This document shows, in pieces, positions 19,562-38,783 of a stretch of 64,000 nt of DNA; positions within the stretch are counted from its first letter, which is position 1, and every line of letters starts with the position of its first letter. Origin of the DNA: a virus; IMG/VR virus record IMGVR_UViG_3300047673_000554, positions 15,598 through 79,597 of that record; one strand, written 5' to 3'. The translations under genes were made by a program, and so were the position numbers. The notes under the pieces are model-generated. The model did no database searches. It saw only the letters and a list, made by a program, of their open reading frames with translations, and was not told the origin of the DNA.

Positions 19562-22054
19562 CTACCGGTTTTTCACCCTAAATGGAACCGTGTACATATC
19601 ACAAAAATCAGAAGCGCGAAGTTTAGCGGCGATCAATTTTTGTCTTATCGCAACCGCATCACCCAACTCATTACTGCTTGCTACTGAATTAATGAATTTC
19701 CGAACAGACTCTCTAAACTCTCCAAGCTTTTCCCGTGTCATGACACGAATATTTTGGTTAGGTGAAGCAGCGTATTCGAACAACGAATATGGGTGCACCA
19801 AAATTGGAGTATAAGCACTCGAGTGATCATAACGCTCCTCAAACCACTCACAAGAGCCATTAAGCTGATTACAGTAATACTTGGTTATAGTTTCAACCAC
19901 AGCCTCATTTTTACATTCAATCACAAAATAATTTAACTCTCCAACTTTCCACAGTACATCAGGCCCCTTTTGGTACTCTTGCTCCGGGCGTTGACTACGG
20001 AAGCCTAAATACCTAGCTACATCCTTCATCCTTGCTTCAAACAATTCGGAACTATCAAGCTTAAAGTCCAGCCCCTCCAACACCCCATTTATTTCCACTA
20101 CAAGCTTATTTGGATCTTGAAACGTTTTAGTCAAAAACTCACTACATGCTTTAGCCTGATCCAGCACCGCCCCAGAAATTTTATGATATTGAATACCTTC
20201 GATAGGCTTCAATAGCCTTCTATTGTCCCCAACAGCAGACATTTGAATTTTTTGAGCAGAGGCTTGATCTAGCAAATTAGTGTATTCCGCATAATGCTGC
20301 TTAACCAAACCTCTAAACTTCAAGTCAGCAACTGCATTAACTAACTCCTTTAACTCTTGAGCCGCAGCAGCAAAATTGCTATTGCACGCATAATCGTATG
20401 CTTTTCTGAGTGACAAGATATTACTATCAATGGAGTTTTCTTGAGTGTAAGCCAAAGTTGCCAACACCCCCTTACTTGCTGCAACCCACTCCTCTTTGCG
20501 CGCCCAGCAATAATTTAACGTATCTGTAATCTCTGATAATTTCTTTCCTTTGATCTGTTCAGAAACCTGCTCGGACAGGGCTAACTGGGCTCTAGTACCC
20601 GGTGAAAACTTGCTCATAGCACCTTGCGCATAAAGCTTGCTGGTCAGATCTCTACCCATTAAAAAAACAACACAGTAATCATCATTTGATCTAACGCCAC
20701 GCCCCATACCCTGTTCAACGCGTTGAATTACCTGATTTACGTCCCGATCACTTCCCAATAAAACCGTTTGATTGACCCTGTCGATTTTGCTGCGAACATC
20801 TGGAAACCCATCTATCACTAACAGCCTGCAGGCATCACCGGGCAGGTCAATCCCATCATACTTATTAACAAGTACGACCAAACCAACTTTACCGGCCTTT
20901 AGCTTATCCACCCCCTCGTAAAGATTATTTGCAAATAGAACTAAATTAGCGCTATCCCTCCAGTAATCAGCACGCGCCTTCGAAGGTACAATAACTACCA
21001 CATTCATATATTCAGCGATGAACTTGCAATATTTCTTTATATGATCATCAGCTAGTTCAGAATTAATTACTTGAGGCAGGAGTATCATACGATCCCCAAC
21101 ATCACCCGCTGAATCAGGAACGATAGGACGCTGTAGAAATTTATCATCAACCCCGAAATGACTAGCCAAAATTGAATCATCAACTAACGTGGCGGTCATG
21201 AACAACTTACGATCGGCATCAATGATACTAGGAATCATATGAATCGGAATTGCATGCGGGGTGATCTCGATACTCTTCGCCCCAACGACACAATGACTCA
21301 ATTTTGGAAACTCTTTCACAAGAGGCCACACAAACTGTAAATAATCTTCTTTTTTATGCGCAATTAGAATTTTACAAACTTCTGATATTTTACTCTGCCA
21401 AACCCAATAGGGAACTTGCATCAACGCAGCTGAACTACCACTTTCGACTTCAAGAGCTTTTGATTCGCATTGGTTATGGAGAGATTCCTTAAATAAATCA
21501 TACAGCGCGGTATATACCGCGGTGCCCTGCGGAATCTCGATTGTAAACTGCTCTTCAACGTAGCCAATACATGCATGAGCATCATCTACGACAAGACTAG
21601 CAATTTTTATTTTTACACCTTCGTCACCAACGCCGAACGCTGATCGGCCATTGACCAATTTGAAAATATTCGCCACGAGAATTGCTTTACCGGAAATAAA
21701 GCGATGTGAATGTACATCGTCAGTAACTTCAACACCCAGTTCTTCAGCAGCATCCATCACTTGTTTTACAAGATAAGGATCAGGGCAAATATATACAGCG
21801 GGAAACTTTCCCTCATTTATACAACTTTTTAACGCAAGTAAACCAACGACAGTTTTTCCGCTACCAGTGTTTAACTTTAGAACTAAACTATTTTCATTTC
21901 GACGCTCGAACCACTTCGACCAAACCTGAGATTGGACATCTCGAGGATATTGAAACTTTTGAGCATTTTTTTTGGGTAAAGCATTAAAAATTTCCCTGGG
22001 CTGCAGGACGGTATCAACCGTTACACCTGTTCCAATACGTGTGAAGTCAATCAT
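19562..22054 (-). CDS. SF2 (DinG-like) helicase with C-terminal PD-(D/E)xK nuclease; Hna-like anti-phage protein
   Basis: NTGSGKT, VDDAH, MTAT, DGIDLP, QGMGRGVR; C-terminal GPDVLW...IECK; 830 aa, AT-rich. Confidence 0.8.
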   Translation of the reverse strand: MIDFTRIGTGVTVDTVLQPREIFNALPKKNAQKFQYPRDVQSQVWSKWFERRNENSLVLKLNTGSGKTVVGLLALKSCINEGKFPAVYICPDPYLVKQVMDAAEELGVEVTDDVHSHRFISGKAILVANIFKLVNGRSAFGVGDEGVKIKIASLVVDDAHACIGYVEEQFTIEIPQGTAVYTALYDLFKESLHNQCESKALEVESGSSAALMQVPYWVWQSKISEVCKILIAHKKEDYLQFVWPLVKEFPKLSHCVVGAKSIEITPHAIPIHMIPSIIDADRKLFMTATLVDDSILASHFGVDDKFLQRPIVPDSAGDVGDRMILLPQVINSELADDHIKKYCKFIAEYMNVVVIVPSKARADYWRDSANLVLFANNLYEGVDKLKAGKVGLVVLVNKYDGIDLPGDACRLLVIDGFPDVRSKIDRVNQTVLLGSDRDVNQVIQRVEQGMGRGVRSNDDYCVVFLMGRDLTSKLYAQGAMSKFSPGTRAQLALSEQVSEQIKGKKLSEITDTLNYCWARKEEWVAASKGVLATLAYTQENSIDSNILSLRKAYDYACNSNFAAAAQELKELVNAVADLKFRGLVKQHYAEYTNLLDQASAQKIQMSAVGDNRRLLKPIEGIQYHKISGAVLDQAKACSEFLTKTFQDPNKLVVEINGVLEGLDFKLDSSELFEARMKDVARYLGFRSQRPEQEYQKGPDVLWKVGELNYFVIECKNEAVVETITKYYCNQLNGSCEWFEERYDHSSAYTPILVHPYSLFEYAASPNQNIRVMTREKLGEFRESVRKFINSVASSNELGDAVAIRQKLIAAKLRASDFCDMYTVPFRVKNR

Positions 22055-27094: not shown

Positions 27095-28183
27095 CTAAAC
27101 CAGCTTGCTTAACCACTCCCACTTTTTATAAGCGTCCCCTCTCCCTCGAAGGTGGGTATACCGCCTCAACGAGTTCCAGTCCCTGTGCCCTGAAACACTC
27201 GACACTCTCGGGATATCCCAGTCCATCTCAAACAACCGACTCACCCCTTCGTGTCGCAGATCATGGAAATGCAGGTCTTCGATGCCTAGCATCGGGCAGG
27301 CCCGGGTGAAGGACGCCGACACCGACCTGGCGTTGTAGGGAAAGATCTCCACTTCCGTTTTGGGCATGGACTGCAGGATCGCCCAGGCTTCATCCGGCAG
27401 ATGACACCACACGTTGTTGCCGATCTTCTGCCCGGGGTTTTTCATGTCCCGCACCAGGACGGCCTGACGGATCTCATCCAGGTCCTCCCAGCGAATCCGC
27501 GTAATCTCTTCCTGCCGGCGAGTTGAGAAGAGCGCGAAAGCAATCAGCTTTGGCATATCGATTTGGCTTTTTCGACGCTCCTGCATTTCGAAAAAATGCT
27601 TCATCAGCTTGTCCAGCTCATCAAGGGTTGGCCGACGGTTACGCTCCTTGCTCTTGCTCACCATGCCCAACTTGCGCAACACCCTGCGTGCGTCGGACAT
27701 GGCCAGCGGGTTCACCTCATAACCCCAGGCTGGCCTCGCCACGGACAGCACCGCCCCTAGGTGCGACAAATCGTTGCCGACTGTCTGCGCCTGGACGCCA
27801 CCACCCTCCTTGCTCATTCGCCACTGCGCGAACTCCACCAGCTTCTGACTACTCAGCGCCGCGTCGTCGAGCTCGCCCAACCAGGTGTCCTTGATCGCGT
27901 TCAGCGTGGCGCTCTTGGTCTTGCCCAGCGGTCGGATCTTCTCGTACTCATCCAGGTACTGCTGGATCATCTTCTTGATCGTCACCCCTTTGCGGTTCGC
28001 GCGCTCGATGGCACCCGGTTCCGCCAGCTCTGTTTCCCGGCGCTTGATCCAAGCCTGGGCTACCTGCTTGCGGTCGAAGGTTTGGCTTTCCTGATAAACT
28101 GTCTTCCCGTCCCGATTGATCCGTATCTGCGCCGTGTAGGCCGTCGAGTTGTCCTTGCGCTTACGTGATGTGATCGTGCCCAT
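27095..28183 (-). CDS. int: Tyrosine integrase, dusA-associated type
   Basis: Catalytic R (STRRQEEI), K (DMKNPG), HDLRH, GH, Y; divergent from dusA 5' fragment. Confidence 0.93.
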   Translation of the reverse strand: MGTITSRKRKDNSTAYTAQIRINRDGKTVYQESQTFDRKQVAQAWIKRRETELAEPGAIERANRKGVTIKKMIQQYLDEYEKIRPLGKTKSATLNAIKDTWLGELDDAALSSQKLVEFAQWRMSKEGGGVQAQTVGNDLSHLGAVLSVARPAWGYEVNPLAMSDARRVLRKLGMVSKSKERNRRPTLDELDKLMKHFFEMQERRKSQIDMPKLIAFALFSTRRQEEITRIRWEDLDEIRQAVLVRDMKNPGQKIGNNVWCHLPDEAWAILQSMPKTEVEIFPYNARSVSASFTRACPMLGIEDLHFHDLRHEGVSRLFEMDWDIPRVSSVSGHRDWNSLRRYTHLRGRGDAYKKWEWLSKLV

Positions 28184-28189
28184 TTCCAG

Positions 28190-28235
28190 TTGCTACATTG
28201 CTGAAGTCGATTGCTACATTGTAGCAACCGACTTC
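28190..28235. repeat. Arm-type integrase site repeats / palindrome
   Basis: TTGCTACA at 28190 and 28211, TGTAGCAA at 28220; near-perfect inverted repeat 28203-28235. Confidence 0.7.
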
Positions 28236-28264
28236 GAAAAACAAGGAAAAATGGGTAAAAACCG

Positions 28265-28280
28265 CTGTATAAAAGACCAG
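28265..28280. promoter_or_regulatory. LexA (SOS) box
   Basis: CTGTATAAAAGACCAG fits CTG-N10-CAG with CTGT and AT-rich spacer. Confidence 0.7.
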
Positions 28281-28285
28281 TATCA

Positions 28286-28387
28286 ATGAATCTCGAAAAA
28301 CCTGAAGCGCCCGTAAATACTAGCCACACCCGTTCCGAGCCATCCCGCCGCTTCAGCGTGGCCCCGATGATGGATTGGGCGCACTAA
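28286..28387 (+). pseudogene. dusA: dusA 5' replacement fragment containing the att core (33 codons, then stop)
   Basis: Own translation MNLEKPEAPVNTSHTRSEPSRRFSVAPMMDWAH*; RRFSVAPMMDW is the conserved DusA N-terminal motif. Confidence 0.88.
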
Positions 28388-28816
28388 CGGTCCCCCCCCC
28401 CGCAAATAAAGGCCGTTAGGTCTGTTCTAAATCCCCGGTACCAATTTCGTACCAGCAACATTCGTCCTCCATCAAATCCGAGTAGCTCTCTCACCCGCTG
28501 TAGCAAATTTTAAGCAACCGTTTTCGGCTCCAATCATGGGCACTGTTGTGACTGCCCCCCCTTATCCGCTACAGTTTCCAGGTTGATTGTTGATTGTTTA
28601 TTTTTGCATGTATGTACACGCACGCTCTGCGTTAATAAAAACAAAATATATCACTACACCCCCCTAACCTCGCTCATATTATCAATGCACATTACAACCC
28701 CTTTAAACTAAAAAATACGCCCCCATCGCCAAAGCAAAAAGAATTTGAAAATTAATTTAAAAAATGAGAAGGTGGCATTTTGCCCACAATGGATTGCATC
28801 CCTAAGGAAATATTAA

Positions 28817-30634
28817 ATGATTGTAACTTCAGCAATGGCTGCCGCAGCCATACGCAGCCTCACTCCGCTGATTGGTGCAGCCTACAAAGGTGCAAGCAAA
28901 TCATTGAAATCCAGTTTTTCAAACTGGTCCAATACGAATAGTAATGAAGAAATTGCGAATCATCTTTTACAGATCGGCGTTGTTAAAACAATCTGGTCAT
29001 CAGGAAAAAGCAAGTTTATTAAAGACTTTTATTACCCATCAAAGATTGACGAAATCAACGATGGCGAGGGCATTGACCATGTCGATCAACTCCCTAAAGG
29101 AAACATAGTTATTCAAGGCATAGTTGGCCAGGGCAAATCTATGTTCATGCGCCACCTAGCTTGTTCTGCCATTGGAGAAATTGGGAACTCTTATATACCG
29201 GTATTCATTGAACTTCAAAAGATAAGTTCAAAAAAAGGCTTGAAACAGATCATATTTGAAAACTTGGAACTATTGGGAATCACAGTAACTGAAGAGAGTG
29301 TTAAATATCTAGCATCAAAAGGCTACTTAGTCTTTCTGTTAGATGGATTTGATGAAGTCGTAGATGCATGCATCAATGAAACTGTTGAAGCGCTTGATGA
29401 ATTTCAGAGACGCTATCCAAAACTTAAAATCATTGTCTCATCACGCCCCGGTAGTGGCATCCAGCAGATGGTAGGCTTCGAAGTTCTAGATCTGACGCCT
29501 TTAACGGAAGATGATTACGAACCTTTCTTAAAGTGCCTCCAGCTAGATACCGTAAAAAGAGAGGCGTTGATAGCCGCAACTGAATCTGCTCCAGATTCAG
29601 TTAAAGAAATTATAAGCACACCATTAATGCTCACGTTAGTTGTTTGGGTTTACGAATCCGAACAAGAAATTCCATCTACGCTAAGAGATTTCTTTGAAAA
29701 ACTATTCCATGTCGTTTTCACCAGACACGATAGTTTAAAGGTTGGCTTTACAAGACAACACTACAGCGGTCTTTCGGAAACAAAACTCCTACAACTTTTT
29801 GAGGCGTTCTGTTTTATGATCGTTCAAGAAAATTTCGGAAGAAGTTTAACACGACCAGAATTTAATACTGCATTCACCAATGCACTTGAGTATTCAGAAG
29901 CAACAAATTGCGATGTGGACCATTTCAGAAAAGACATTGTAAAAGTCGCATGCCTGATGCTGGAAGATGGCCTTGACCTAACTACTTTTCTGCACAAAAG
30001 CATTTTGGATTATTATGCCGCCGCATTTATATTACACAGCGAAGAAGAGTTATCCGAACTATTTTATTCGGACGCTTTTGAAGGATTTAGCCAATGGCAG
30101 CATGTGTTATTCTTCTTAGCTGACGCTGACAAATACCGATATTCAAAACATTATTTACTCACCCATTTCCAACCGGGCATTGATGAAATCGATCAGTTAC
30201 TTAAATCAAAGAGTGACGATATTTTATTACGACACATAAATAAGAAGCATACTGGCTTCACTTACTTAATTAGTGAAAAAGGGCAAATGCTTGGTTGGTC
30301 AGGCGCCAAATCGGCAGCAACGCAAATTGGTATCTATTTTGAAAGAGCATTAATTTACGGAGGCCAAAAAATATTCAATGGGAGTTTACCTGCCACCCAG
30401 CTAGCCCAAATAATAAAAGTTGCGGCTGTACAAGGGAAAAACAAACCTGCAGGTAGAAACTATTATCACATTGAAATCAGCGAGGTTATGCGCATTATTG
30501 GCACTGATTCATACTGGCGCGAAATTGCTCTCATCGATCTTGAATTACACAAAAAAATGGACGAGGCACAACGCACAGTTGAACATCAAAACAAAAAGAA
30601 AAAAATCTTTGGTAAAAAACTGAAGCCCCGCTAA
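28817..30634 (+). CDS. NACHT-family STAND NTPase (bacterial NLR-related), short C-terminal domain
   Basis: GIVGQGKS, LLDGFDE, VSSR, TPLMLTL, FLHKSILDYYAA. Confidence 0.9.
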   Translation: MIVTSAMAAAAIRSLTPLIGAAYKGASKSLKSSFSNWSNTNSNEEIANHLLQIGVVKTIWSSGKSKFIKDFYYPSKIDEINDGEGIDHVDQLPKGNIVIQGIVGQGKSMFMRHLACSAIGEIGNSYIPVFIELQKISSKKGLKQIIFENLELLGITVTEESVKYLASKGYLVFLLDGFDEVVDACINETVEALDEFQRRYPKLKIIVSSRPGSGIQQMVGFEVLDLTPLTEDDYEPFLKCLQLDTVKREALIAATESAPDSVKEIISTPLMLTLVVWVYESEQEIPSTLRDFFEKLFHVVFTRHDSLKVGFTRQHYSGLSETKLLQLFEAFCFMIVQENFGRSLTRPEFNTAFTNALEYSEATNCDVDHFRKDIVKVACLMLEDGLDLTTFLHKSILDYYAAAFILHSEEELSELFYSDAFEGFSQWQHVLFFLADADKYRYSKHYLLTHFQPGIDEIDQLLKSKSDDILLRHINKKHTGFTYLISEKGQMLGWSGAKSAATQIGIYFERALIYGGQKIFNGSLPATQLAQIIKVAAVQGKNKPAGRNYYHIEISEVMRIIGTDSYWREIALIDLELHKKMDEAQRTVEHQNKKKKIFGKKLKPR

Positions 30635-30772
30635 AACGTCATGGCGTGATACTGGTGCAAAACATTTCCTTGCCCGACATCACTATCGGCAAGTGTTTCC
30701 CTTTTGCGTCGGAGGTGTCGCCGTAGGATTCGTTAATGACGGTTTTGGAGACTTTAATAACCCTCCCCGCTT

Positions 30773-30829
30773 CCTCGTTATCAGCTTCCCAAGCTGATAA
30801 CGAGGGTTCGATTCCCTTCACCCGCTCCA
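30773..30829 (+). pseudogene. 3' half of tRNA-Gly(CCC), att-core remnant
   Basis: CAGCTTCCCAAGCTG anticodon arm, GAGGGTTCGATTCCCTT T-arm, CACCCGCTCCA end; D-arm and 5' acceptor strand absent. Confidence 0.88.
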
Positions 30830-30875
30830 CTATTTTCAAGGCCTGCAGCCCTGTTCATCCATTACCGTAACCCAC

Positions 30876-30897
30876 TGGGGGACGTATTGGGGGACGT
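30876..30897 (+). repeat. Direct repeat TGGGGGACGT x2, arm-type site candidate
   Basis: TGGGGGACGT-AT-TGGGGGACGT about 45 bp after the tRNA fragment. Confidence 0.6.
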
Positions 30898-30969
30898 TTG
30901 ATGCAAGCACACGCAACGCGCTGTAACTCCTGATCCAACCCCCGTATAGGTGCCAATCCTAAAATCCGT

Positions 30970-31281
30970 GGGGGTTCGAAAAAATAGTAATATCAGTAAT
31001 ACCCCCTCCGTAAAACAGCCACAGCCCTTATCGATCAAGGCGTCCAGCGATTCATGGGGAAGGCGATATTTAAGCGATAGAAAGGCGATAGTATTACCTT
31101 TCTATAAAGCTATATTTCCATTCTTTGAAACCCAATGAATCCGGGGGTTTGGCCGAAATATTACTTTTCATATCGCCTCGTATTACCTTGCTTTGTAATA
31201 CCGAAAGCCTAGTAAAACCGGGGGCTCCAAACCCGCTACCTATAAGGTATCGCTGATATCGCTCTTTTTGAAAATGCCCCC
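30970..31281. repeat. Iteron-like array (GYRATA x12) with imperfect terminal inverted repeats; candidate origin
   Basis: GTAATA/GCGATA mostly forward on left, TATTAC/TATCGC mostly reverse on right. Confidence 0.65.
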
Positions 31282-31373
31282 GCCCCCTAAGAATCACTCT
31301 CAATAAAGCGATGTTTTCGGTTCTCGGTCTGTCGCTGCTATGCTTGAATTTCTTTCGAAAGGAGTCGGCAACC

Positions 31374-31604
31374 ATGGCAAGCGAGTATTCACTGGCGGAT
31401 GTGCTGGAACGGATTTACCACAATCAGTTGGCCTTGGAAGCGGCAGTGATGGAGCTGACTCGGTGGGCAGAGCAGCAGAATGCAGTAGATGTGGGCGATA
31501 ACGTGCGGGGAGCGCTCTACACTATTGGCGAAAACGCAGGTCATATCAAACAAGGCTTGGCTCGACTGAGCGGGTTCCCGCCAGATCTTCGTGAGGCCAA
31601 TTAG
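31374..31604 (+). CDS. Small helical hypothetical protein
   Basis: AAGGAG SD; MASEYSLADVLERIYHNQLALEAA..., a type I recall from Pseudomonas prophage ends. Confidence 0.7.
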   Translation: MASEYSLADVLERIYHNQLALEAAVMELTRWAEQQNAVDVGDNVRGALYTIGENAGHIKQGLARLSGFPPDLREAN

Positions 31605-31707
31605 ACGATGGCTTAGCGTCTTATGAACAGTTCTCCCCGCTAGGCAATCGACAGTAATTGGCCAAAAGCAGTCATTCAATCCTCTACAAAAGCAGGGGCG
31701 ATTCACC

Positions 31708-32358
31708 ATGCAGGATCACGTACTCAAGCGCATCGATGAACTGATTTCGCGGGGCAATGCCGCCGCCCGGTCACAATCATCCCAAGACTATTGGATGAAA
31801 GACGTCGTGGAGGCACAGAGTTGGTTCTCGTCCGCGGCTAACGCGATACACCAGGTCGCCCCGCCTGGCAGTTTCTACATGGCAGAGCTGCAGAGGATCG
31901 TCGAGCATGAGCAACTCCAAAGCGGCTTCCCGATTTCCTCCGTCGAAAAACTCCTTGGTCTGCTTCAGTCGGTGCAGCTTGAAGCGCGAGCTGGGTTGCT
32001 GGTCAAACTCGAGGACCAAGTAGTCGCCTCAGCGTTCGATGACTTTCTTGATCACGCGACGCAGTATCACAAGGCCGGCAAGGTCAACGAAGCTGCTGTC
32101 CTGGCTTCTGCGGTGCTTGAAGACACTATCAAGCGCATAGCACGGAAGTCTGAGATTGCGGTTGGTGGTGTGTCTCTCGAACCTCTCATTGATGAACTGA
32201 CCAAGCGCAGCGTCTTTACGCAGGTGAAGGCGAAGCGTTTGAAATCATACGCAGCGGTTCGCAACCACGCTCTTCACGCGGAGTGGGAGAAATTGGACAT
32301 TAGAGACGTTGGTGCACAACTCTCTGGGCTTCGTGAACTTCTAGATGAGCATCTTTGA
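31708..32358 (+). CDS. HEPN/DUF4145-domain protein (putative RNase)
   Basis: AAVLASAVLED helix and RNHALH (Rx4H) motif. Confidence 0.8.
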   Translation: MQDHVLKRIDELISRGNAAARSQSSQDYWMKDVVEAQSWFSSAANAIHQVAPPGSFYMAELQRIVEHEQLQSGFPISSVEKLLGLLQSVQLEARAGLLVKLEDQVVASAFDDFLDHATQYHKAGKVNEAAVLASAVLEDTIKRIARKSEIAVGGVSLEPLIDELTKRSVFTQVKAKRLKSYAAVRNHALHAEWEKLDIRDVGAQLSGLRELLDEHL

Positions 32359-32365
32359 CGCTGAC

Positions 32366-32423
32366 GCCTAACCCGTCGTTCCAGCCGACCGCCTTCGGCG
32401 GCGGTTGAACTCCAACGTTATGC
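32366..32423 (+). mobile_element. Integron attC site (59-base element)
   Basis: R'' GCCTAAC ... GTTCCAGCCGACCGCC-TTCG-GCGGCGGTTGAAC ... R' GTTATGC, 58 bp, 7 bp after the stop codon. Confidence 0.88.
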
Positions 32424-32887
32424 AAAAGGAGTTCGCCGCCCCCTGAAATTTCTGACTGAATCGGACTTAGTTTTTAGACAAGCCGGTATGTCAGTAATGG
32501 ATCGATTGCAGTCGTCTGAATTATCCGTACACGGGTGATCACCTGTGAAATGCGCTATAGGGCCTGAAAGCCCCCTGTGTCGGGGCTTCCGGGCAAGCTA
32601 CCCCTCGTCCTAAAACACTTCAAAGCGCCCCTGATACGAACTTTTGAGAATTCGAAAACTCAATAAGACGCTTATTTTCCAGCGTCACACCCTTGTAAAT
32701 TGGGGGTTCTGCAGATCGACCACCGACCTGGCTTGCTCTGGACGATACGCAAAGCCACTGCACTTTTTTGCAAAACCTTGCACACCGTGAAATTGCAAAA
32801 TGCGCCACTAACTGCTCGGCGGGCTTGGGCGCGACCTTGACTTGCGCAACACCCGCCTTTGCACAATAAAGGGACGCAAAGCCCGTC

Positions 32888-32907
32888 GGCGGGAGGGGGA
32901 TAAGTGC
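32888..32907 (+). other. Possible cos site of prophage 2
   Basis: GGCGGGAGGGGGATAAGTGC resembles P2 cos GGCGAGGCGGGGAAAGCAC; non-coding, between tail end and att as in HP1-type maps. Confidence 0.4.
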
Positions 32908-33291
32908 TTTTTTAATCGTTTTTTTATCATCCAATGATTTTTTTGCTGTAGGACTGCGGTTACACACTACTGCGTTCATCAATACTGCAAGCGTCATCTT
33001 GATCAATCCTCGTTGCGATCGGCAGCCACACGGCGCCCCAGGCATCGCCGACTACATCGCACGATCAGCGTCCCTCCACCCATTGCGGCGCTCCAAGACG
33101 GCATCCTCAGGAGTGCATTTGTTCTCATTAGCCGCAAATGAGTGCGAAGGCTACAGCGCTGAATTTAGCTACCTTAGCCCTCCATAGCCGTTCGACAACC
33201 TCCAAACACCTTAACTCGCTCTAGCATTACACCCTTAGAAATGCTATCTAAATCGAAAGTCGTTTAAGTAATCAGCGTAGGAGTTAAATGG

Positions 33292-35013
33292 ATGTTTCAG
33301 CAACCTCAAATTTTTTTAATTGATACGGATGAAGATATTTCTAAGGCCATCCTTAAAAGCTGGTCTAATATTGGTACTGGAACGCTCGGCACCCCATATG
33401 AAACTCCTACTGATAGTGACTGGCGCCCAGTAATCCAAAATAAACCGCTGGGTAAATTTGAGGAATCAGATTTAATCATTGTTGATCTTTCATCAAAAAA
33501 ATTAGCACATCATGCACCAGGCGAAAAGCACACACCGACAGGAGAAGTAGATCTATGGGCGAAGTGTGACAAAGGCTGGATTGATGCCAGAGTTCGCACA
33601 GTTTTATCCGCAAAAGCAGATCTGAATAGAATTGTAAGGAATGGCGGCGTACTTATCATTTTTGCCGCACCTGATAGCCCAATGAATTTTCAATGGGCAA
33701 CAGTTAGCAACTATCGAATGTCAACTCGAAGTACCGTTGATGGTGGAGTATGGAATCTTGCCGACCCACTAGATCGATTGAGAGTTGATGCCGAGTCTGG
33801 ATCCGTAATTAACGTAACAGACAACTCCCCAATAGGATCGCTTTTAAAACGGCATTTGACAGGTGCCGAATTCACATGTGTGTTCAGCTCTGTATGGGAT
33901 CACGACTCAACATGGAAATCATTAGCGACTAATAAGTATGGCGTGAGTGTTGCGGTCTCTGCTGAACATGGCAACGGACATATTTTCGTACTCCCTCAGT
34001 TAATAGAAAAAGCACGGTTCATCGAAGAGTTATTAGGGTCAATTCTTCCTGAAATAGTACCCAACCTATTTCCAGATATCGAAAAAGGCAAATGGACTCA
34101 TCGGCCGGAATACGAACTTGAGCGTGTTAAAGAATTAGAATCTCGAAAAGCCTTAGTAATCGCCGAGGCAGAAAAACAACTCAATAACATACAACAAGAA
34201 ATCGATGAAAATCGTGCCGCGAATGGCTGGCTACATGATCTAATTACGGGAACAGGTGATGACCTAGTTAACGCTATAAAAATCGCCCTTTCAGAACTAG
34301 GCTTTCAGCGTGTTATAGACGTTGATGAAATACGAGACGCTGAAGGCAAAAGCCGACGCGAAGACCTTCGAATAGAAGACGGCGACCCGCTCTTGATTGT
34401 CGACATCAAAGGCGTCGGCGGGAGAGCTGGTGACGATGACATTATGCAAGCAAACAAACACGCCTTAATTAACATGAGGGAACTAGACAGAACCAACATT
34501 CAAGGTTTATCGATAATTAACCAGCAAAGACATTTACCCCCATTAGAAAGGGATAACAACGAAGCTTTTCGAAAGGAAATAGTAGATTTTGCTGGTGAAA
34601 CAGGCCTAGGGCTACTAACTGCATTCGACCTTTATCGAATAGTTGTAAACAAACAAAGACACGGCTGGTTACCAGATTGGGTAAAACCGCTTTTTTTTAG
34701 GCATCAACGCATTACTGCTGTGCCTACGCACTATAAATATCTAGGAACAATCTCCAAAGTCTTTACCGAAGTTTTTGGCATGCATATATTAGAAAACGAA
34801 ATCGAAGTAGGCGACTACTTAGCGGTGGAGGGAGACATTTATTTTGAGGAGGTCGAAGTTCTGTCAATACAAGTAGAAAATGTTGAAGTAACAAGTGCTG
34901 CCGTTGGGGATCGTGCGGGCTTCAAATGGCCACAAAGTGCAGCGAAGCTTCGAGAGAATATGCGCGTCTATGCAATACCTCGCTCATTTCAAGACTCGAG
35001 GTTGCAGCCTTAA
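33292..35013 (+). CDS. Multidomain protein: alpha/beta N-domain, coiled coil, PD-(D/E)xK nuclease, elongation-factor-like beta-barrel
   Basis: AGGAG SD; REDLRIE...IVDIKG; C-terminal YLGTISKVF...IEVGD...VLSIQVENVEVTSAAVGDRAGFK. Confidence 0.7.
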   Translation: MFQQPQIFLIDTDEDISKAILKSWSNIGTGTLGTPYETPTDSDWRPVIQNKPLGKFEESDLIIVDLSSKKLAHHAPGEKHTPTGEVDLWAKCDKGWIDARVRTVLSAKADLNRIVRNGGVLIIFAAPDSPMNFQWATVSNYRMSTRSTVDGGVWNLADPLDRLRVDAESGSVINVTDNSPIGSLLKRHLTGAEFTCVFSSVWDHDSTWKSLATNKYGVSVAVSAEHGNGHIFVLPQLIEKARFIEELLGSILPEIVPNLFPDIEKGKWTHRPEYELERVKELESRKALVIAEAEKQLNNIQQEIDENRAANGWLHDLITGTGDDLVNAIKIALSELGFQRVIDVDEIRDAEGKSRREDLRIEDGDPLLIVDIKGVGGRAGDDDIMQANKHALINMRELDRTNIQGLSIINQQRHLPPLERDNNEAFRKEIVDFAGETGLGLLTAFDLYRIVVNKQRHGWLPDWVKPLFFRHQRITAVPTHYKYLGTISKVFTEVFGMHILENEIEVGDYLAVEGDIYFEEVEVLSIQVENVEVTSAAVGDRAGFKWPQSAAKLRENMRVYAIPRSFQDSRLQP

Positions 35014-35147
35014 GCGCCGCGACTTCTTTTGCTCTTGGCCCCGCTTTCAGTTAGTGCCGCAACTACGTGGTCTAGAACCCCGAGTGCAGCCCATTGGCGA
35101 GCTGGGGCTTCTAGGCAACAATAACCTTAAACTGACTGTCACGAATG

Positions 35148-35170
35148 AAAAGGCCCCGCACATGCGGGGC
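35148..35170 (-). terminator. Terminator ending prophage 2 late operon
   Basis: AAAAG-GCCCCGC-ACAT-GCGGGGC. Confidence 0.65.
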
Positions 35171-35181
35171 ATGAGCCGTAT

Positions 35182-35907
35182 TCAAGGAATTGCGTACGCT
35201 CTGTGTAGTTCGATGGAAGCCGCCTCGATATCCGAATTGTTCAGTGCACGGTCGTATGCCCTGATAAAGGCATAGCCTCCCACCAGCCCTGCTGTGGCCA
35301 GCGCCGATCCTTGCCCGCCCAGAATATTCCGTCCGCTGAGAGACACCCCGGTCGCGCCTTCGACGATTGGGCTAGTGCCGACTTTGATTTTGGAGGTTGG
35401 ACCGTCGAACACGGCGAGGATGACCGTCCACTCGGTCGATTTGTCACTGCTTTCCAGTCGACTGGCCGCTGAGATACTTTCATAGAAGCCATTCGCACCT
35501 GGTGCGAGGATCTGGGCGCCCGACGCCATCAGACGCGCCTGATTCGCCGCAAAGACAGAAGCCTTGACCACCATCGCGTAAGTCATCGACTGCGCGATAG
35601 CGACCGTGCCCGGGCCATTTCCGATCTGCTGTGTCCCGTCAAATAACACGGCTGGGTTGCCACCTGGTCCACCAGTCAGCGAAAACTTCGGTTTCCCCCA
35701 GCCCGTGTACTGGAAGTTGAAAGTGCGGTTGACGATCGGCGCCGGTCCGTTTGCCAGCCAGGTGTCCACGGCAGCACCGTCGGCCAGTGCGGCCAGACTC
35801 GCGGCATCGAGCTCGTAAATGATGTTCGACTGCACATCAGGGATGGTTGGGGTATCGGAGAGAGGGTTGGACAACACACCAGGTGCGCTAATCACGAGAG
35901 AAAACAT
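35182..35907 (-). CDS. LamG/concanavalin-like virion accessory protein
   Basis: ELDAASL..DGAAVDTW, PAVLFDG, YDRALNN. Confidence 0.65.
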   Translation of the reverse strand: MFSLVISAPGVLSNPLSDTPTIPDVQSNIIYELDAASLAALADGAAVDTWLANGPAPIVNRTFNFQYTGWGKPKFSLTGGPGGNPAVLFDGTQQIGNGPGTVAIAQSMTYAMVVKASVFAANQARLMASGAQILAPGANGFYESISAASRLESSDKSTEWTVILAVFDGPTSKIKVGTSPIVEGATGVSLSGRNILGGQGSALATAGLVGGYAFIRAYDRALNNSDIEAASIELHRAYAIP

Positions 35908-35926
35908 TTGATGCTCCTTACTGCGT

Positions 35927-37831
35927 TCAGCGCAGCGCGGTGTAGAAGAATTCAGAAATCACTGGGGCGCCCTTGGCCGGATCCGGATGGATTTTGTCAT
36001 CACTGATCAGCGGGGTTTGCCCGGTACTGGCGTACTTCGCCGGGTCACCCATGGCCGCGTACTGCATATCCATAAAGGCAATGCCCTGCGTCCAGCACCA
36101 GGCAGCGGCGAGCTTGGTGTAGGCACTCATGGGGTACTGACTGGATCGTGTGGTGTCCCATCGCATGGCGACGATGAAGGACGCGCCGGGATGGACTTCC
36201 AGGTGAGTCGCGACCACGCCCTGCAGGTTGGCGAGAAAGGTCGCCGGCGTGACTGATGCGCCCTGATCGTTACCGCCCAGCATCACCAGCACGGCATCTG
36301 CGGGAATGAAGCCCGTGGCGGTCTTCTGCTGCGTTAACCAGGTCGTATCGTTCTTGTACCAGTCACCCGAGGCCGAACCGCTGGCCGCGCACTTGGAGAC
36401 GACCACACCCGACGTACTGTTTTCGGTGTAGATGCCAAACAGCGTCGGCGTGCCGGTGAAGACTTCCATGCGCAGCTTCCAGTTACCGCCAGCAGGCAAC
36501 ACCGGAAAGGCCACTTGCTGGGGCCCCACCCCGGACAGCGACAACGTGTTCCACTCCAGGGCATCACCCCAGCGATACCGCAGGGTGGAATTTGTGCCAT
36601 CGCCCAGGAATAGCAGCTTCGCCAGTGTCGCCGCTGTCGAGATATCCGCGGTGTCGACGGCTGCGATGCTCACGTAATCACCCACAGCCCCCGCCTTGAT
36701 CGTCCTGTTGTCGGGACTGGCCGCGCCCAATGGCGATAGCGTCCAGCTGCCGCCGAAGTAGGTCAGGCTGCCATTGGTGTACAAGAAGTTTTTCGTGCCC
36801 AGGGACGAGCCGTGGTTGAAGCCGATGTAACCCGAACCGCCAAAGCCAAAGTCTTTGGCTAAAAACCGGGTGAGGTCGTTCATGTAGAAGTTGTGAGCGG
36901 CGGAATAGGAGTCGCCGATGATTTTTAGGTACAGCTTTACCCCAGGTACACCCGCGCGAATCTGGCCTTGCTTCATTCGCATTTTGGGCACGTTGGAGAT
37001 GTTGTTGTAGGCCGTCTTCGGATGACTGTCGTCACTCCCGATCAGCGGTTTCAGCCGCTTGGCCCAACGAAAGATCACCCAGTCCGGCACCTGACCGTCG
37101 GTGTCGCGGATCGACAAATCAGTCAGGCGTCCCAGGGCATCAGGAAACGCATACAGCAGACCCGGGACATACGCTGGCTTGACGCCCAGGTACTTGTACA
37201 ACATCTTCAGCGCCCAATTGCTCGGCCCGCCATCCCGATTATTGATGCCCATCCACGTTTCATGGCCGGCGGCATCACGCACTGCCACCAACGTGTCATT
37301 GACGGTCTGAACTTTGAATTTGCTCTGCACAAAGCTGTTGATCGTTTCGACGGCGGTCGAGCTCGGGTAGCGCGTTTGCTCAATTGCCACCCCCGCTTCA
37401 TTTTTAAACAGAATCAGCGACTGGGCGTTCTCGGGTGAAACCACCGTGAAAAACATGCCGTCGGTCGTGGTGCGCAAGCCTTCCGCCGTGCTGGCTTTCA
37501 CGCCGGCAGCCAACTGGGCCGCATCCCTTGCCGATTCTGCGCGTAACGCCGCGCCGTTCGCCTCGGCTAGGGATTCGGTGACGTCCAGGAACTGGACGGG
37601 CAAACGGTAATCCCGTTTTCCTTTGGTGATGCGCAGGTCATACAGCCCGTTCGGCGCGGCAAACTGGGCCAATCCGTTTGCGTCGGCCAGGAACGGGTTG
37701 AGCAATCCTAAGCCGTTGCTTTTACGTAAACCGAAGACGATGTTTTCGGTGCCGCGCTCGTACAGGTAGCAGGTCGCAGCGGGCAAGGCATTGCCCAGGT
37801 CATCCTGTGCAAAGAAACTCTTGAGTTCCAA
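35927..37831 (-). CDS. Tail spike-like protein with SGNH hydrolase domain
   Basis: GDSYS, GGND, DKIHP blocks; N-terminal virion-attachment-like region; TTG start at 37831. Confidence 0.8.
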   Translation of the reverse strand: MELKSFFAQDDLGNALPAATCYLYERGTENIVFGLRKSNGLGLLNPFLADANGLAQFAAPNGLYDLRITKGKRDYRLPVQFLDVTESLAEANGAALRAESARDAAQLAAGVKASTAEGLRTTTDGMFFTVVSPENAQSLILFKNEAGVAIEQTRYPSSTAVETINSFVQSKFKVQTVNDTLVAVRDAAGHETWMGINNRDGGPSNWALKMLYKYLGVKPAYVPGLLYAFPDALGRLTDLSIRDTDGQVPDWVIFRWAKRLKPLIGSDDSHPKTAYNNISNVPKMRMKQGQIRAGVPGVKLYLKIIGDSYSAAHNFYMNDLTRFLAKDFGFGGSGYIGFNHGSSLGTKNFLYTNGSLTYFGGSWTLSPLGAASPDNRTIKAGAVGDYVSIAAVDTADISTAATLAKLLFLGDGTNSTLRYRWGDALEWNTLSLSGVGPQQVAFPVLPAGGNWKLRMEVFTGTPTLFGIYTENSTSGVVVSKCAASGSASGDWYKNDTTWLTQQKTATGFIPADAVLVMLGGNDQGASVTPATFLANLQGVVATHLEVHPGASFIVAMRWDTTRSSQYPMSAYTKLAAAWCWTQGIAFMDMQYAAMGDPAKYASTGQTPLISDDKIHPDPAKGAPVISEFFYTALR

Positions 37832-37832
37832 A

Positions 37833-38783
37833 TTAGGCTCCCGTGATGGGCTTGAGCTGCCCAGTAAGCTGTAGGCCGGTACCGGCGTTGGTAGTGAAGT
37901 TCGCGGCGTTGGCAGGGACAGGGCTAGGTCCGTGGACGTGGGCCGCCAGTTCGGTGTTCGTCTGCGTGACCAGGTCAATCAGATCGCACAGCACCTGCAG
38001 TACGTTGACCGACTCAGAGCCCAACCAGGTCTTGGCAGCGATGCTGCGGCGGGCACCTTCGATGCGCTCGAGCAGCTGGCCTCCCACGGTCAAATTGAGC
38101 TTCTGGCCCACCACCTGGTTGAGGTCACGCCCGCTGGCCAGGTGCAAGTCATCCAGTGCGGCCAGGCTGGCGGAACCGCCCGACAGCAACTTGAGCGAGC
38201 CGATCGCTTCGATCGTCTTAATGCCCCCGACCGACTCGGTCGAATGGTCGTCCACCGTCACCGTGCTGCTCTGGTGGCGCTCGACGTTGGTCAGGCTTTC
38301 AACCTCACGCTCGATCGACTTGTCCAGAATCCGGCCATCGGTCTGGCGCAGCCAGTTGCCGTCCGCATCGGCGCGCTGCTGGGCGGCGTCGCTGTGCTGC
38401 CACACCTGGTCACCTTTCGGCACCTTGGGCAGACTCAGGCCGTGCGGCAGGATTGCCTGGATAAACGGCTTGCTCGGCAGGCCGTAGGCGAAGGACACGA
38501 CAACCCGTGTCCCTTCTTCAGGGAACGCGAAAAAGCCCATCTCATCGCCGCCCATAGGCATGGGCAGCGGCACGCCGGCGAGCACTGGCAGCTCCGGATC
38601 CGGCTCGTCATCCTCACCCAACAGTTCGAGGTCCACCGCAAAGCGCGGACGGAAGTCGTCGCAGATCCCGGCGCCGGCGGGAGCATCGGCCACACCCACC
38701 ACGCGGGCGAAGCGCGGCAGGTGATAACCGCCGGTGAGTTCGGGAAATTGCCGCTCTACGCTGCGGCGGATTGCGTCTTCCAT
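37833..38783 (-). CDS. Baseplate spike protein (HP1-type)
   Basis: FPEEGTRVVVSFAYG, beta-helix repeats, terminal HVH. Confidence 0.7.
   Translation of the reverse strand: MEDAIRRSVERQFPELTGGYHLPRFARVVGVADAPAGAGICDDFRPRFAVDLELLGEDDEPDPELPVLAGVPLPMPMGGDEMGFFAFPEEGTRVVVSFAYGLPSKPFIQAILPHGLSLPKVPKGDQVWQHSDAAQQRADADGNWLRQTDGRILDKSIEREVESLTNVERHQSSTVTVDDHSTESVGGIKTIEAIGSLKLLSGGSASLAALDDLHLASGRDLNQVVGQKLNLTVGGQLLERIEGARRSIAAKTWLGSESVNVLQVLCDLIDLVTQTNTELAAHVHGPSPVPANAANFTTNAGTGLQLTGQLKPITGA

What the first reader, a model, noticed from the sequence alone, without database searches (positions are those of the whole stretch)
33292..35013. Single-gene moron fusing a restriction-like nuclease to an elongation-factor-type beta-barrel: candidate undescribed anti-phage system
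Seen: a stand-alone AT-rich 573-aa gene with its own SD, convergent on the end of the prophage 2 tail operon. Four parts are readable. (i) An N-terminal alpha/beta region with DLIIVD...RIVRNGGVLIIF...GNGHIFVLP. (ii) A coiled coil (ELERVKELESRK...QQEIDENR). (iii) REDLRIE-x-IVDIKG, a PD-(D/E)xK-type catalytic pattern. (iv) A C-terminal strand-rich unit YLGTISKVF...IEVGD...VLSIQVENVEVTSAAVGDRAGFK. Knowledge: part iv matches the pattern of EF-Tu domain II / peptidase U32 C-terminal barrels, part i resembles class I glutamine-amidotransferase-like folds, and P2-family moron slots are defence hotspots. Inference: the barrel could be a decoy or sensor for phage proteins that target translation factors, or a tRNA/ribosome-docking module, gating the nuclease. 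I do not recognise this architecture from a named system.
Basis: partly seen in the sequence, partly recalled or inferred. Interest (0 to 1): 0.85.

Follow-up and report, generated by a model that had tools for sequence, protein, structure and literature searches.

The report
Orphan FokI-like nuclease, likely anti-phage
A stand-alone prophage cargo gene encodes an unnamed three-domain protein (inactive amidotransferase-like domain, FokI-type nuclease, elongation-factor-type barrel) whose relatives repeatedly sit inside restriction-modification operons, so it is probably a new anti-phage nuclease, though no function has been tested.

Summary
The ORF (33292-35013, +, 573 aa) is real, AT-rich, has its own Shine-Dalgarno sequence and converges on the tail genes of a myovirus-type prophage.

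- Residues 1-262: a class I glutamine-amidotransferase/ThuA-like domain with no conserved nucleophile.
- Residues 277-319: a long helix, predicted to form an antiparallel coiled-coil homodimer.
- Residues 320-476: a PD-(D/E)xK nuclease closest to the FokI cleavage domain, with E357-D358...(D/E)371-x-K373 conserved family-wide.
- Residues 477-566: an EF-Tu-domain-II-type barrel.

The protein matches nothing in Pfam, PADLOC, PHROGs or NCBIfam. Every database homologue is named 'hypothetical protein'.

The family is rare, patchy across at least 10 phyla and has a fixed architecture. In 7 of 36 full-length loci it lies inside a type I RM operon next to hsdR. In 2 it abuts an MmeI-type enzyme. A distant relative lies between PifA and PD-T4-5 on a Klebsiella plasmid.

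A defence nuclease is therefore the best reading, by guilt-by-embedding only.

The EF-Tu-decoy and tRNA-docking ideas gain no support. The barrel is about 12% identical to a real EF-Tu, the tRNA-end-contacting Glu is not conserved, and the domain is acidic.

The same stretch was noted once before in this scan, from an overlapping window of the same genome.

The parts
33280..33283 (+). Shine-Dalgarno-like GGAG, 8 nt before the start codon
   Evidence: read directly from the sequence
33292..35013 (+). CDS, 573 aa (P0001), single-gene unit
   Evidence: Full-length homologues of 565-645 aa. No conserved partner gene in 36 loci.
33292..34077 (+). Residues 1-262: class I glutamine-amidotransferase/ThuA-like alpha/beta domain, predicted non-catalytic. 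Candidate sensor or oligomerisation module.
   Evidence: VIA-align: 1kxj Z 11.2, rmsd 3.2, 170 aa; 1t0b ThuA-like Z 11.1; 2gk3 Z 10.9; IFT52-N 5fms Z 9.8. No conserved Cys after the strand GGVFIVFA. Family-wide invariants are P5, G33, E58, G170, P235 and F260.
34078..34248 (+). Residues 263-319: linker plus long helix 277-319, predicted antiparallel coiled-coil dimer interface
   Evidence: DSSP of the model. Homodimer prediction with contacts 282-300/304 and 293-293.
34249..34719 (+). Residues 320-476: PD-(D/E)xK nuclease domain of the FokI cleavage-domain type
   Evidence: Domain-only model pLDDT 92.8, pTM 0.88. FokI 2fok_A Z 11.2, rmsd 3.1, 137 aa; R.BspD6I small subunit Z 10.8; AF1548 Z 10.7. 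FokI is also the top Foldseek hit, E 6e-3.
34360..34410 (+). Predicted catalytic core: E357-D358 (RREDLRI) and D371-I-K373 (IVDIKG)
   Evidence: E357, D358, K373 and G374 are invariant, and position 371 is always D or E, in 34 sequences from many phyla. The same holds in the 44-sequence alignment.
34720..34989 (+). Residues 477-566: six-stranded barrel of the EF-Tu domain II / IF2-C2 / peptidase U32 C-terminal type
   Evidence: eRF3 3e20 Z 11.7, rmsd 2.1, 81 aa; Pbp11 7anu Z 11.4; U32 C-terminal 4he6 Z 11.3. The sequence profile hits mainly translation GTPase barrels, the top 21 hits all being such, at E 0.003-0.9.

Best explanation
The gene encodes a member of an uncharacterised, horizontally mobile family of single-polypeptide nucleases that most likely act in defence against phages or other mobile DNA. 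The working unit is probably a homodimer held by an antiparallel coiled coil (helix 277-319). The dimer carries two FokI-type PD-(D/E)xK active sites (E357/D358, D371, K373) and could make double-strand breaks. The catalytically dead GATase-like N-domain and the acidic EF-Tu-domain-II-like barrel evolve faster than the nuclease, and I read them as sensor/regulatory modules that keep the nuclease off until an infection cue appears. Shown here: the folds, the conserved catalytic motif, the fixed architecture, the absence of a partner gene, and the RM/defence neighbourhoods. Inferred: nuclease activity, DNA as substrate, dimerisation (prediction only), gating, and the defence role itself. I put the umbrella claim 'defence nuclease' at about 0.7 and the gated, abortive-type mechanism at about 0.4.
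For: Fold and motif. The nuclease domain matches FokI, BspD6I and AF1548 at Z 10-11, and nearly all of the top 50 structural neighbours are PD-(D/E)xK nucleases. E357, D358, (D/E)371 and K373 are conserved across phyla.

Dimer. ESMFold2 homodimer of residues 262-573 scored ipSAE 0.72, best of 3 controls 0.02. That mark was reached by 20 of 30 proteins solved as pairs of one chain and by 1 of 23 solved as single chains. The three runs agree in at least 98% of contacts and partner pLDDT is at least 89. My own alignment was used, so those counts hold only roughly. The interface is the helix plus the invariant P416-P417-L418 loop.

Context.
- In 7 of 36 full-length loci the homologue lies inside a type I RM operon beside hsdR: M-S-X-R in L018 and L027 (overlapping stops and starts in L027), S-X-R in L009, M-S-X-helicase in L012, R-X-M-S in L013 and L037, and L026.
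- The embedded members fall in at least 4 separately supported clades.
- In 2 further loci it abuts an MmeI-type enzyme.
- A UG29-type reverse transcriptase lies 0.9 kb downstream in L024 and L025.
- SoFic, AbiTii and PDC candidates occur among the other neighbours.
- A 24%-identical full-length relative (hhalign probability 99.8%) lies between PifC-PifA and PD-T4-5 on a conjugative Klebsiella plasmid.
- Another relative is cargo on a P1-like phage-plasmid.
- In the window the gene shares a low-GC cargo stretch with a NACHT NTPase gene.

Distribution. The family is patchy and rare: 42 loci among 185,579 species genomes and 0 of 400 sampled Pseudomonadota. The gene tree mixes phyla.

Sensor reading. 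Mean pairwise identity is 0.32 (N-domain) and 0.34 (barrel) against 0.49 (nuclease). All domains are acidic, and no recognisable DNA-reading domain was found.

Precedent. Genes embedded in type I RM, BREX and DISARM clusters are often defence genes (Payne et al., doi 10.1101/2024.01.29.577857).
Against: No experiment exists for any member. About 20 of the 36 loci show only housekeeping-looking neighbours such as GroEL, PolA and an aminotransferase. Apart from this provirus, no IMG/VR viral contig carries the gene, so it is not typical phage cargo. No sigma-70-like promoter was found upstream, and no RNA data exist. A constitutively dimeric FokI-type nuclease with no antitoxin could equally be a direct restriction enzyme. 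Net charge and relative evolutionary rate are weak indicators of a sensor role. The dimer is a prediction only.
Confidence: 0.55

Rival explanations
1. It is a modification-dependent (type IV-like) restriction endonuclease. The dimeric FokI-type nuclease cuts phage DNA that carries non-host base modifications. The N-domain, whose fold relatives include sugar-handling ThuA/GIFT-type domains, and/or the barrel read the modification. No methyltransferase is needed because host DNA is not a substrate.
For: It is a single gene with no methyltransferase in the window and no conserved partner. The nuclease fold also matches the MDREs AspBHI (Z 8.1) and MspJI (Z 7.7). Sitting inside type I RM operons or next to MmeI-type enzymes parallels type IV systems such as TgvAB, which complement type I RM (PMC11411939). 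Methylase-less type IIS-like END nucleases in Pseudomonas restrict hypermodified phages (PMC12191111).
Against: None of the known modified-base readers (SRA, EVE, ASCH, YTH, winged helix, inactive EndoIII) appears among the structural neighbours of either accessory domain, although this absence is inconclusive. Both accessory domains and the whole protein are acidic, which is unusual for DNA-reading modules.
Confidence: 0.2
2. It is a PrrC-like second line behind type I restriction. The protein is held silent by contact with the type I RM complex, or by another host factor. When a phage disables that guardee it is released and cuts RNA, possibly tRNA bound through the EF-Tu-type barrel, or DNA, aborting the infection.
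For: The embedded copies sit between hsdS and hsdR, the slot I recall PrrC occupying (from memory, not checked), and are sometimes translationally coupled. PrrC is almost exclusively embedded in type I RM. The stand-alone barrel protein Pbp11, a top structural match, binds tRNA in gel shifts (PMC9540759). Some PD-(D/E)xK nucleases such as Can2 (Z 8.7) cut RNA as well as DNA (from my own knowledge).
Against: Most family members, including this one, have no type I RM genes nearby, so a type I RM guardee cannot be general. The tRNA-end-contacting Glu of EF-Tu is not conserved in the barrel, and the barrel is acidic. Pbp11 needs its basic N-terminal tail for tRNA binding. There is no ABC-ATPase or anticodon-nuclease module.
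Confidence: 0.08
3. It is not an immune gene. It could be a DNA repair or recombination nuclease, or a selfish or addictive nuclease that travels with mobile elements and merely lands in the same variable regions as defence genes.
For: More than half of the loci show ordinary neighbours. The gene is absent from other viral contigs. Structural neighbours include the repair and resolution enzymes NucS (Z 9.3) and Hjc. It is IS1-flanked on a Klebsiella plasmid.
Against: It is too rare and patchy for a housekeeping repair role. Repeated, independent embedding inside type I RM operons in at least 4 clades is hard to explain by chance landing. Pfam, PHROGs and NCBIfam gave no match to any family, transposase or homing-endonuclease families included.
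Confidence: 0.12
4. The barrel mimics domain II of EF-Tu or another translational GTPase and traps phage proteins that attack those factors. Binding relieves inhibition of the nuclease.
For: The barrel fold is clearly of the translation-GTPase domain II type (Z 10-11.7, rmsd 2.0-2.5). Its sequence profile finds mainly such barrels. An acidic, fast-evolving barrel fits a protein-binding sensor better than a nucleic-acid binder.
Against: It is only about 12% identical to a Burkholderia EF-Tu over 52 aligned columns, hhalign probability 18%. That is far from the mimicry expected of a decoy. The barrel is no closer to EF-Tu than to eRF3, SelB, IF2 or the U32 C-terminal domain. No phage trigger is known.
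Confidence: 0.05

Closest known systems
FokI / BspD6I-type (type IIS) restriction endonuclease cleavage domain
   Same: Same PD-(D/E)xK fold over the whole catalytic domain (Z 10-11.2, 137-141 residues aligned). It has an acidic pair plus a (D/E)-x-K motif. Two domains are probably needed for a double-strand break, and here they are predicted to be brought together by a coiled coil.
   Different: No sequence-level similarity is detectable by HMMER. There is no FokI-type helix-turn-helix recognition domain. There is no adjacent methyltransferase. The dimer is predicted to form through an upstream helix rather than the cleavage-domain helices. The flanking GATase-like and barrel domains are unknown in type IIS enzymes.
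Modification-dependent (type IV) restriction enzymes: MspJI/AspBHI, TgvAB, END nucleases
   Same: A single polypeptide, or small unit, with a nuclease plus non-catalytic reader domains and no methyltransferase. They often sit in or beside type I RM loci (PMC11411939) or in Pseudomonas defence islands (PMC12191111). The nuclease fold is related (Z 7.7-8.1).
   Different: Their reader domains (SRA-like, DUF262, inactive EndoIII) were not seen here. END nucleases use a PLD nuclease, not PD-(D/E)xK. No modification dependence has been shown for this family.
Shedu (SduA)
   Same: A single-gene defence protein built from a variable N-terminal sensing/inhibitory region and a C-terminal PD-(D/E)xK nuclease that works as an oligomer (from my own knowledge). 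The fold match is weak (8ps4 Z 6.4, 8ti9 Z 5.8).
   Different: No DUF4263 hit in Pfam and no SduA hit in PADLOC. The nuclease is closer to FokI than to Shedu. There is an extra C-terminal barrel and a fixed rather than variable N-domain.
PrrC anticodon nuclease
   Same: In several relatives the gene occupies the slot between hsdS and hsdR that I recall PrrC occupying in the type I RM operon (from memory). [quoted passage not shown]
   Different: Unrelated domains, with no ABC-ATPase or anticodon-nuclease region. Most members, including this one, are not next to type I RM.
EF-Tu domain II-type barrels (translational GTPases, IF2-C2, peptidase U32 C-terminal domain, Pbp11)
   Same: Same six-stranded barrel (rmsd 2.0-2.9 over 79-85 residues). 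There is weak but consistent profile similarity, mostly to translation factors.
   Different: It is attached to a nuclease rather than a GTPase. The Glu that contacts the tRNA 3' end in EF-Tu is not conserved. The domain is acidic.
Class I glutamine amidotransferase-like / ThuA-like / GIFT-type domains
   Same: Same alpha/beta fold over about 170-180 residues (Z 9.5-11.2).
   Different: There is no conserved nucleophile at the elbow after the central strand, and no Pfam match. It is presumably a scaffold, oligomerisation or ligand-sensing domain rather than an enzyme.

Membership tests
PD-(D/E)xK nuclease superfamily | alpha-beta-beta-beta-alpha-beta core fold | tested here: met
   Domain-only AF2 model has pLDDT 92.8. 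Nearly all of the top 50 VIA-align neighbours are PD-(D/E)xK nucleases, led by FokI at Z 11.2.
PD-(D/E)xK nuclease superfamily | Acidic residue on strand 2 and (D/E)-x-K on strand 3, conserved | tested here: met
   E357, D358 and K373 are invariant, and 371 is always D or E, in 34 and 44-sequence alignments spanning many phyla. Their placement on strands 359-361 and 367-374 comes from DSSP.
Type IIS restriction-modification enzyme (FokI-like) | Separate sequence-specific DNA recognition domain | tested here: inconclusive
   No HTH or winged-helix recognition domain appears among the structural or Pfam matches. The N-domain is GATase-like and the C-domain is an acidic barrel.
Type IIS restriction-modification enzyme (FokI-like) | Cognate DNA methyltransferase encoded alongside | tested here: not met
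   No methyltransferase lies next to the gene in the window, and there is no conserved partner across 36 loci. The methyltransferases seen nearby belong to complete type I or MmeI-type systems.
Class I glutamine amidotransferase | Fold | tested here: met
   1kxj Z 11.2, rmsd 3.2, 170 aa. More than 15 further GATase1/ThuA-like chains score Z 9.5-11.1.
Class I glutamine amidotransferase | Cys nucleophile at the elbow after the central strand, with the His/Glu triad | tested here: not met
   The positions after GGVFIVFA vary (A, D, T, S, G, L, Q, V, C; Cys only in L039). The placement of the elbow is inferred from secondary structure, not from a residue-level superposition.
EF-Tu domain II-type barrel | Six-stranded barrel superposable on domain II of translational GTPases | tested here: met
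   eRF3 Z 11.7, rmsd 2.1; SelB Z 11.0, rmsd 2.0; EF-Tu 4iw3_B Z 10.4, rmsd 2.4. The profile hits mainly such barrels at E 0.003-0.9.
EF-Tu domain II-type barrel | Residues that hold the aminoacyl-tRNA 3' end (E259 and R288 in E. coli, as quoted in PMC9540759) | tested here: not met
   hhalign to a Burkholderia EF-Tu puts the Glu opposite Q527, a variable column. The Arg lies outside the aligned stretch. The alignment is weak, with probability 18%.
Shedu | SduA / DUF4263 nuclease domain recognised by profile | tested here: not met
   No Pfam or PADLOC hit at E up to 1. The structural match is only Z 5.8-6.4.
PrrC | ABC-ATPase N-domain plus anticodon-nuclease C-domain | tested here: not met
   No such Pfam, NCBIfam or PADLOC hit, and the folds are different. 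Only the genomic slot is shared, and only in some relatives.
Type IV modification-dependent restriction enzyme | Nuclease fused to a modified-base reader, no methyltransferase | tested here: inconclusive
   The nuclease and the lack of a methyltransferase fit. No known reader fold was seen, but the accessory domains could be new readers.
Any named anti-phage system (PADLOC-DB 2.0.0, NCBIfam 20.0, PHROGs v4) | Profile match to a system component | tested here: not met
   No hits for P0001, nor for distant relatives from Klebsiella, Synechocystis, Flavihumibacter and Marinifilum. Newer DefenseFinder models could not be run.

The most novel reading that the evidence does not exclude
The family is a new kind of guard nuclease in which the EF-Tu-domain-II-like barrel, and/or the pseudo-amidotransferase domain, is a bait. 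The bait would be recognised by phage proteins that normally target translational GTPases or type I restriction complexes, and binding would switch on a FokI-type double-strand-cutting dimer. This would be a decoy-based immune sensor fused directly to its effector.
Probability: 0.08. Interest if true: 0.8.

Novelty: new variant of a known kind. Interest (0 to 1): 0.52.

Why it matters
If the defence role holds, this adds a widespread but rare single-gene immune nuclease. The nuclease profile finds about 450 protein clusters (50% identity) at E up to 1e-30. The family spans at least 10 bacterial phyla and occurs on prophages, phage-plasmids and conjugative plasmids. Its domain combination is not in current defence catalogues. 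It would also be a compact, naturally dimeric FokI-type nuclease with two unexplained regulatory domains. That is a tractable model for how stand-alone nucleases avoid self-damage, and a further case showing that embedding in type I RM operons predicts immunity. If it turns out to be modification-dependent, it could become a useful reagent enzyme.

Tried and rejected
Neighbourhoods therefore came from the search for related loci with my own crude ORF calling, which may miscall genes in high-GC contigs.
- No other IMG/VR viral contig encodes a relative.
- No fused forms over 1003 aa were found. Hits under 315 aa look like contig-end fragments.
- HMMER profiles of the nuclease and the N-domain against PDB sequences found nothing meaningful. 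The whole-protein profile gave only noise.
- The whole-library profile search with the nuclease domain was saturated by the family itself. The roughly 1,900 weaker hits, which may have other architectures, could not be inspected.
- BFVD held no full-length viral look-alike.
- Literature searches on architecture keywords and on RefSeq accessions found no description of the family.
- The accessions are not in the stored, truncated supplements of Payne et al..
- No RNA holder was listed among public runs, so expression could not be examined.
- Rfam found nothing in 28000-36000.
- A 14-nt inverted repeat bracketing the gene (32801-32814 and 35048-35061) is at chance level, by my estimate about 0.7 expected in 3 kb.
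- No sigma-70-like promoter lies upstream of the start.
- A CheY-like acidic pocket in the N-domain (D11, D65) was considered and dropped because those positions are not invariant.
- The idea that the gene replaces a missing HsdR nuclease was dropped because the L018 HsdR keeps its HSDR_N domain.
Full report
**Observation**

The ORF at 33292..35013 (+) is present as described: 573 aa with an ATG start. A GGAG lies 8 nt upstream of the start. GC is 0.41-0.46 over the gene against 0.57-0.65 in the tail genes to its right.

The gene is separated by about 930 bp from the previous plus-strand ORF. It converges on a 241-aa ORF (35182..35907, -) and on a tail-fibre gene with an SGNH/GDSL domain (35927..37978, -).

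The surrounding element is a myovirus-type prophage with sheath, tape measure, an HP1-ORF34-type baseplate protein, major head protein and terminase. It sits in an IMG/VR provirus record from a rhizosphere metagenome. An integrase (27095..28183, -) and a low-GC NACHT NTPase gene (28817..30634) lie to the left.

**The protein and its family**

Pfam, PADLOC-DB 2.0.0, PHROGs and NCBIfam 20.0 give no meaningful hit.

The protein is nevertheless a member of a well-conserved family:
- 194 clusters were found in the near-length search, all of 565-645 aa, all full length and all called 'hypothetical protein'.
- ESM Atlas holds clusters of 119, 115 and 495 members with no Pfam family.
- A profile of the nuclease domain finds 454 representatives (50% clusters) at E up to 1e-30, and 2340 at E up to 1e-3.
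- No longer fused forms and no convincing shorter forms exist, so the architecture is fixed.

The family is rare and patchy. It gave 42 loci among 185,579 species genomes and was found in none of 400 other sampled Pseudomonadota. It occurs in Pseudomonadota, Verrucomicrobiota, Planctomycetota, Cyanobacteriota, Bacteroidota, Acidobacteriota, Chloroflexota, Actinomycetota, Myxococcota and Lentisphaerota, and the gene tree mixes these phyla.

**Structure**

An AlphaFold2 model built with 44 homologues has mean pLDDT 90.7 and pTM 0.56, so the domains are confident and their mutual arrangement less so. An exhaustive structural search resolves three domains.

| Residues | Fold | Best matches |
|---|---|---|
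| 3-260 | class I GATase / ThuA-like | 1kxj Z 11.2, rmsd 3.2, 170 aa; 1t0b Z 11.1; IFT52-N Z 9.8 |
| 311-476 | FokI cleavage domain | 2fok Z 11.2, rmsd 3.3, 146 aa; R.BspD6I small subunit Z 10.9; AF1548 Z 10.0 |
| 479-564 | EF-Tu domain II-type barrel | eRF3 Z 11.7, rmsd 2.1, 81 aa; Pbp11 Z 11.4; peptidase U32 C-terminal domain Z 11.3; SelB, EF-Tu |

A domain-only model of the nuclease (pLDDT 92.8, pTM 0.88) again ranks FokI first: VIA Z 11.2, rmsd 3.1, 137 aa and Foldseek E 6e-3. Nearly all of its top 50 neighbours are PD-(D/E)xK nucleases, among them NucS, Can2, LlaBIII, AspBHI, MspJI, Hna and Shedu.

Conservation by domain:
- **Nuclease.** E357, D358, K373 and G374 are invariant and 371 is always D or E. 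K389, E397, N410, P416 and R420 are also invariant.
- **GATase-like domain.** There is no conserved nucleophile after its central strand, so I take it to be non-catalytic.
- **Barrel.** The profile finds mainly translation-GTPase barrels in PDB sequences, weakly (E 0.003-0.9).

**Oligomer**

A homodimer prediction for residues 262-573 scored ipSAE 0.72, with the best of 3 controls at 0.02. That mark was reached by 20 of 30 proteins solved as pairs of one chain and by 1 of 23 solved as single chains. The three runs agree in at least 98% of contacts, and partner pLDDT is at least 89. My own alignment was used, so those counts hold only roughly.

The interface is an antiparallel pairing of helix 277-319, centred on residue 293, plus the invariant P416-P417-L418 loop. 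This supports a two-active-site unit but does not show it.

**Genomic company of relatives**

- The only recurrent neighbours are type I RM subunits, confirmed by Pfam.
  - L018 and L027: hsdM-hsdS-X-hsdR, with overlapping stops and starts in L027.
  - L009: hsdS-X-hsdR.
  - L012: hsdM-hsdS-X-helicase, with hsdR further on.
  - L013 and L037: hsdR-X-hsdM-hsdS, a different HsdR type with EcoEI_R_C.
  - L026: X, then hsdR 0.5 kb away.
- These seven embedded copies fall in at least four separately supported clades of the gene tree, so embedding happened more than once.
- Two further loci (L008, L039) have an MmeI-type enzyme next door.
- Among 134 neighbours of the remaining loci, PADLOC finds a UG29-type reverse transcriptase (L024 and L025), SoFic, AbiTii and several PDC candidates.
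- Distant full-length relatives are also mobile-element cargo. One (24-28% identity; hhalign probability 99.8%, E 5e-30) lies between PifC-PifA and PD-T4-5 on a conjugative Klebsiella michiganensis plasmid. Another is on a P1-like phage-plasmid of Pantoea. Another sits between IS1 copies on a Klebsiella plasmid.
- Many other loci show only ordinary neighbours.

Payne et al. showed that genes embedded in type I RM, BREX and DISARM clusters are frequently defence genes, and they placed 145 candidates in PADLOC (doi 10.1101/2024.01.29.577857). This family matches none of those models.

**Mechanism**

The shown facts fit a nuclease used in conflict with phages or other mobile DNA. Those facts are a conserved FokI-type active site, a probable dimer, a single gene with no partner, mobility, and repeated embedding in restriction loci.

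How the nuclease is aimed or restrained is inference. The N-domain and the barrel evolve faster than the nuclease: mean pairwise identity is 0.32 and 0.34 against 0.49. All domains are acidic, with barrel pI 4.77 in this protein. No recognisable DNA-reading fold was seen. I therefore favour sensor/regulatory roles for the two accessory domains, gating a non-specific or weakly specific DNA nuclease.

A modification-dependent restriction enzyme is the main rival. It fits the RM-embedded position (TgvAB, PMC11411939) and the precedent of methylase-less type IIS-like END nucleases in Pseudomonas (PMC12191111).

A PrrC-like guard of type I RM that cuts tRNA is attractive for the embedded copies. 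The stand-alone barrel protein Pbp11 does bind tRNA (PMC9540759). But most members lack type I RM neighbours, and the barrel neither conserves the EF-Tu Glu that contacts the tRNA end nor is basic.

**Comparison and novelty**

By fold the protein belongs to the PD-(D/E)xK superfamily, nearest to FokI-type cleavage domains. It is not a type IIS RM enzyme, because it has no recognition domain and no methyltransferase. It is not Shedu, PrrC or any PADLOC or NCBIfam system by profile.

Literature searches found no description of this architecture. I rate it a new variant of a known kind: a single-polypeptide nuclease effector with accessory sensor domains.

It is a solid candidate but an untested one. 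Many such candidates are now reported each year, so interest is moderate.

The scan had noted this same stretch once before, from an overlapping window of the same genome.

Noticed in passing
window 28817-30634 (+): A 605-aa NACHT-domain STAND NTPase (PF05729 E 3e-11; phrog_32986 E 4e-61) in the lowest-GC stretch of the region (0.38-0.40). It is a candidate bacterial NLR-type defence gene just right of the integrase.
   Followed up: partly
window 31708-32358 (+): A 216-aa ORF with only a weak DUF4145 match (E 0.037). Another first-stage note calls it a HEPN cassette with an attC site, which I did not test.
   Followed up: no
window 35927-37978 (-): A tail-fibre protein carrying a C-terminal GDSL/SGNH lipase-acylhydrolase domain (PF13472 E 9e-11; phrog_38670). 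It may be a receptor-modifying or depolymerase-type tail enzyme.
   Followed up: no
window 19562-22054 (-): An 830-aa DEAD/ResIII/Helicase_C_2 helicase to the left of the integrase region. It may be another defence or replication gene of the neighbouring element.
   Followed up: no
L008:184-11222: In a Terrimicrobiaceae MAG the homologue sits in a same-strand run: SNF2 helicase (1184 aa), an 800-aa protein with a 2OG-Fe(II) oxygenase domain, the homologue, a 162-aa ORF, and an MmeI-type enzyme (914 aa). This may be a larger composite restriction or BREX-like island.
   Followed up: partly
L048 (NZ_CP024642.1 123402-140721): A Klebsiella michiganensis conjugative plasmid carries pifC-pifA, the distant homologue (563 aa), several hypothetical genes and a PD-T4-5 (Abi family) gene in one stretch. 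It is a compact plasmid defence island.
   Followed up: partly
L024:8623-10575 and L025:14566-16521: A 651-aa UG29-type reverse transcriptase (PADLOC E 4e-49) lies just downstream of the homologue in two Pseudanabaena-like cyanobacterial genomes.
   Followed up: partly
window 32801-32814 and 35048-35061: A 14-nt inverted repeat (13 of 14 complementary) brackets the gene and its upstream spacer. I estimate about 0.7 such pairs by chance in 3 kb, so it is probably meaningless.
   Followed up: partly
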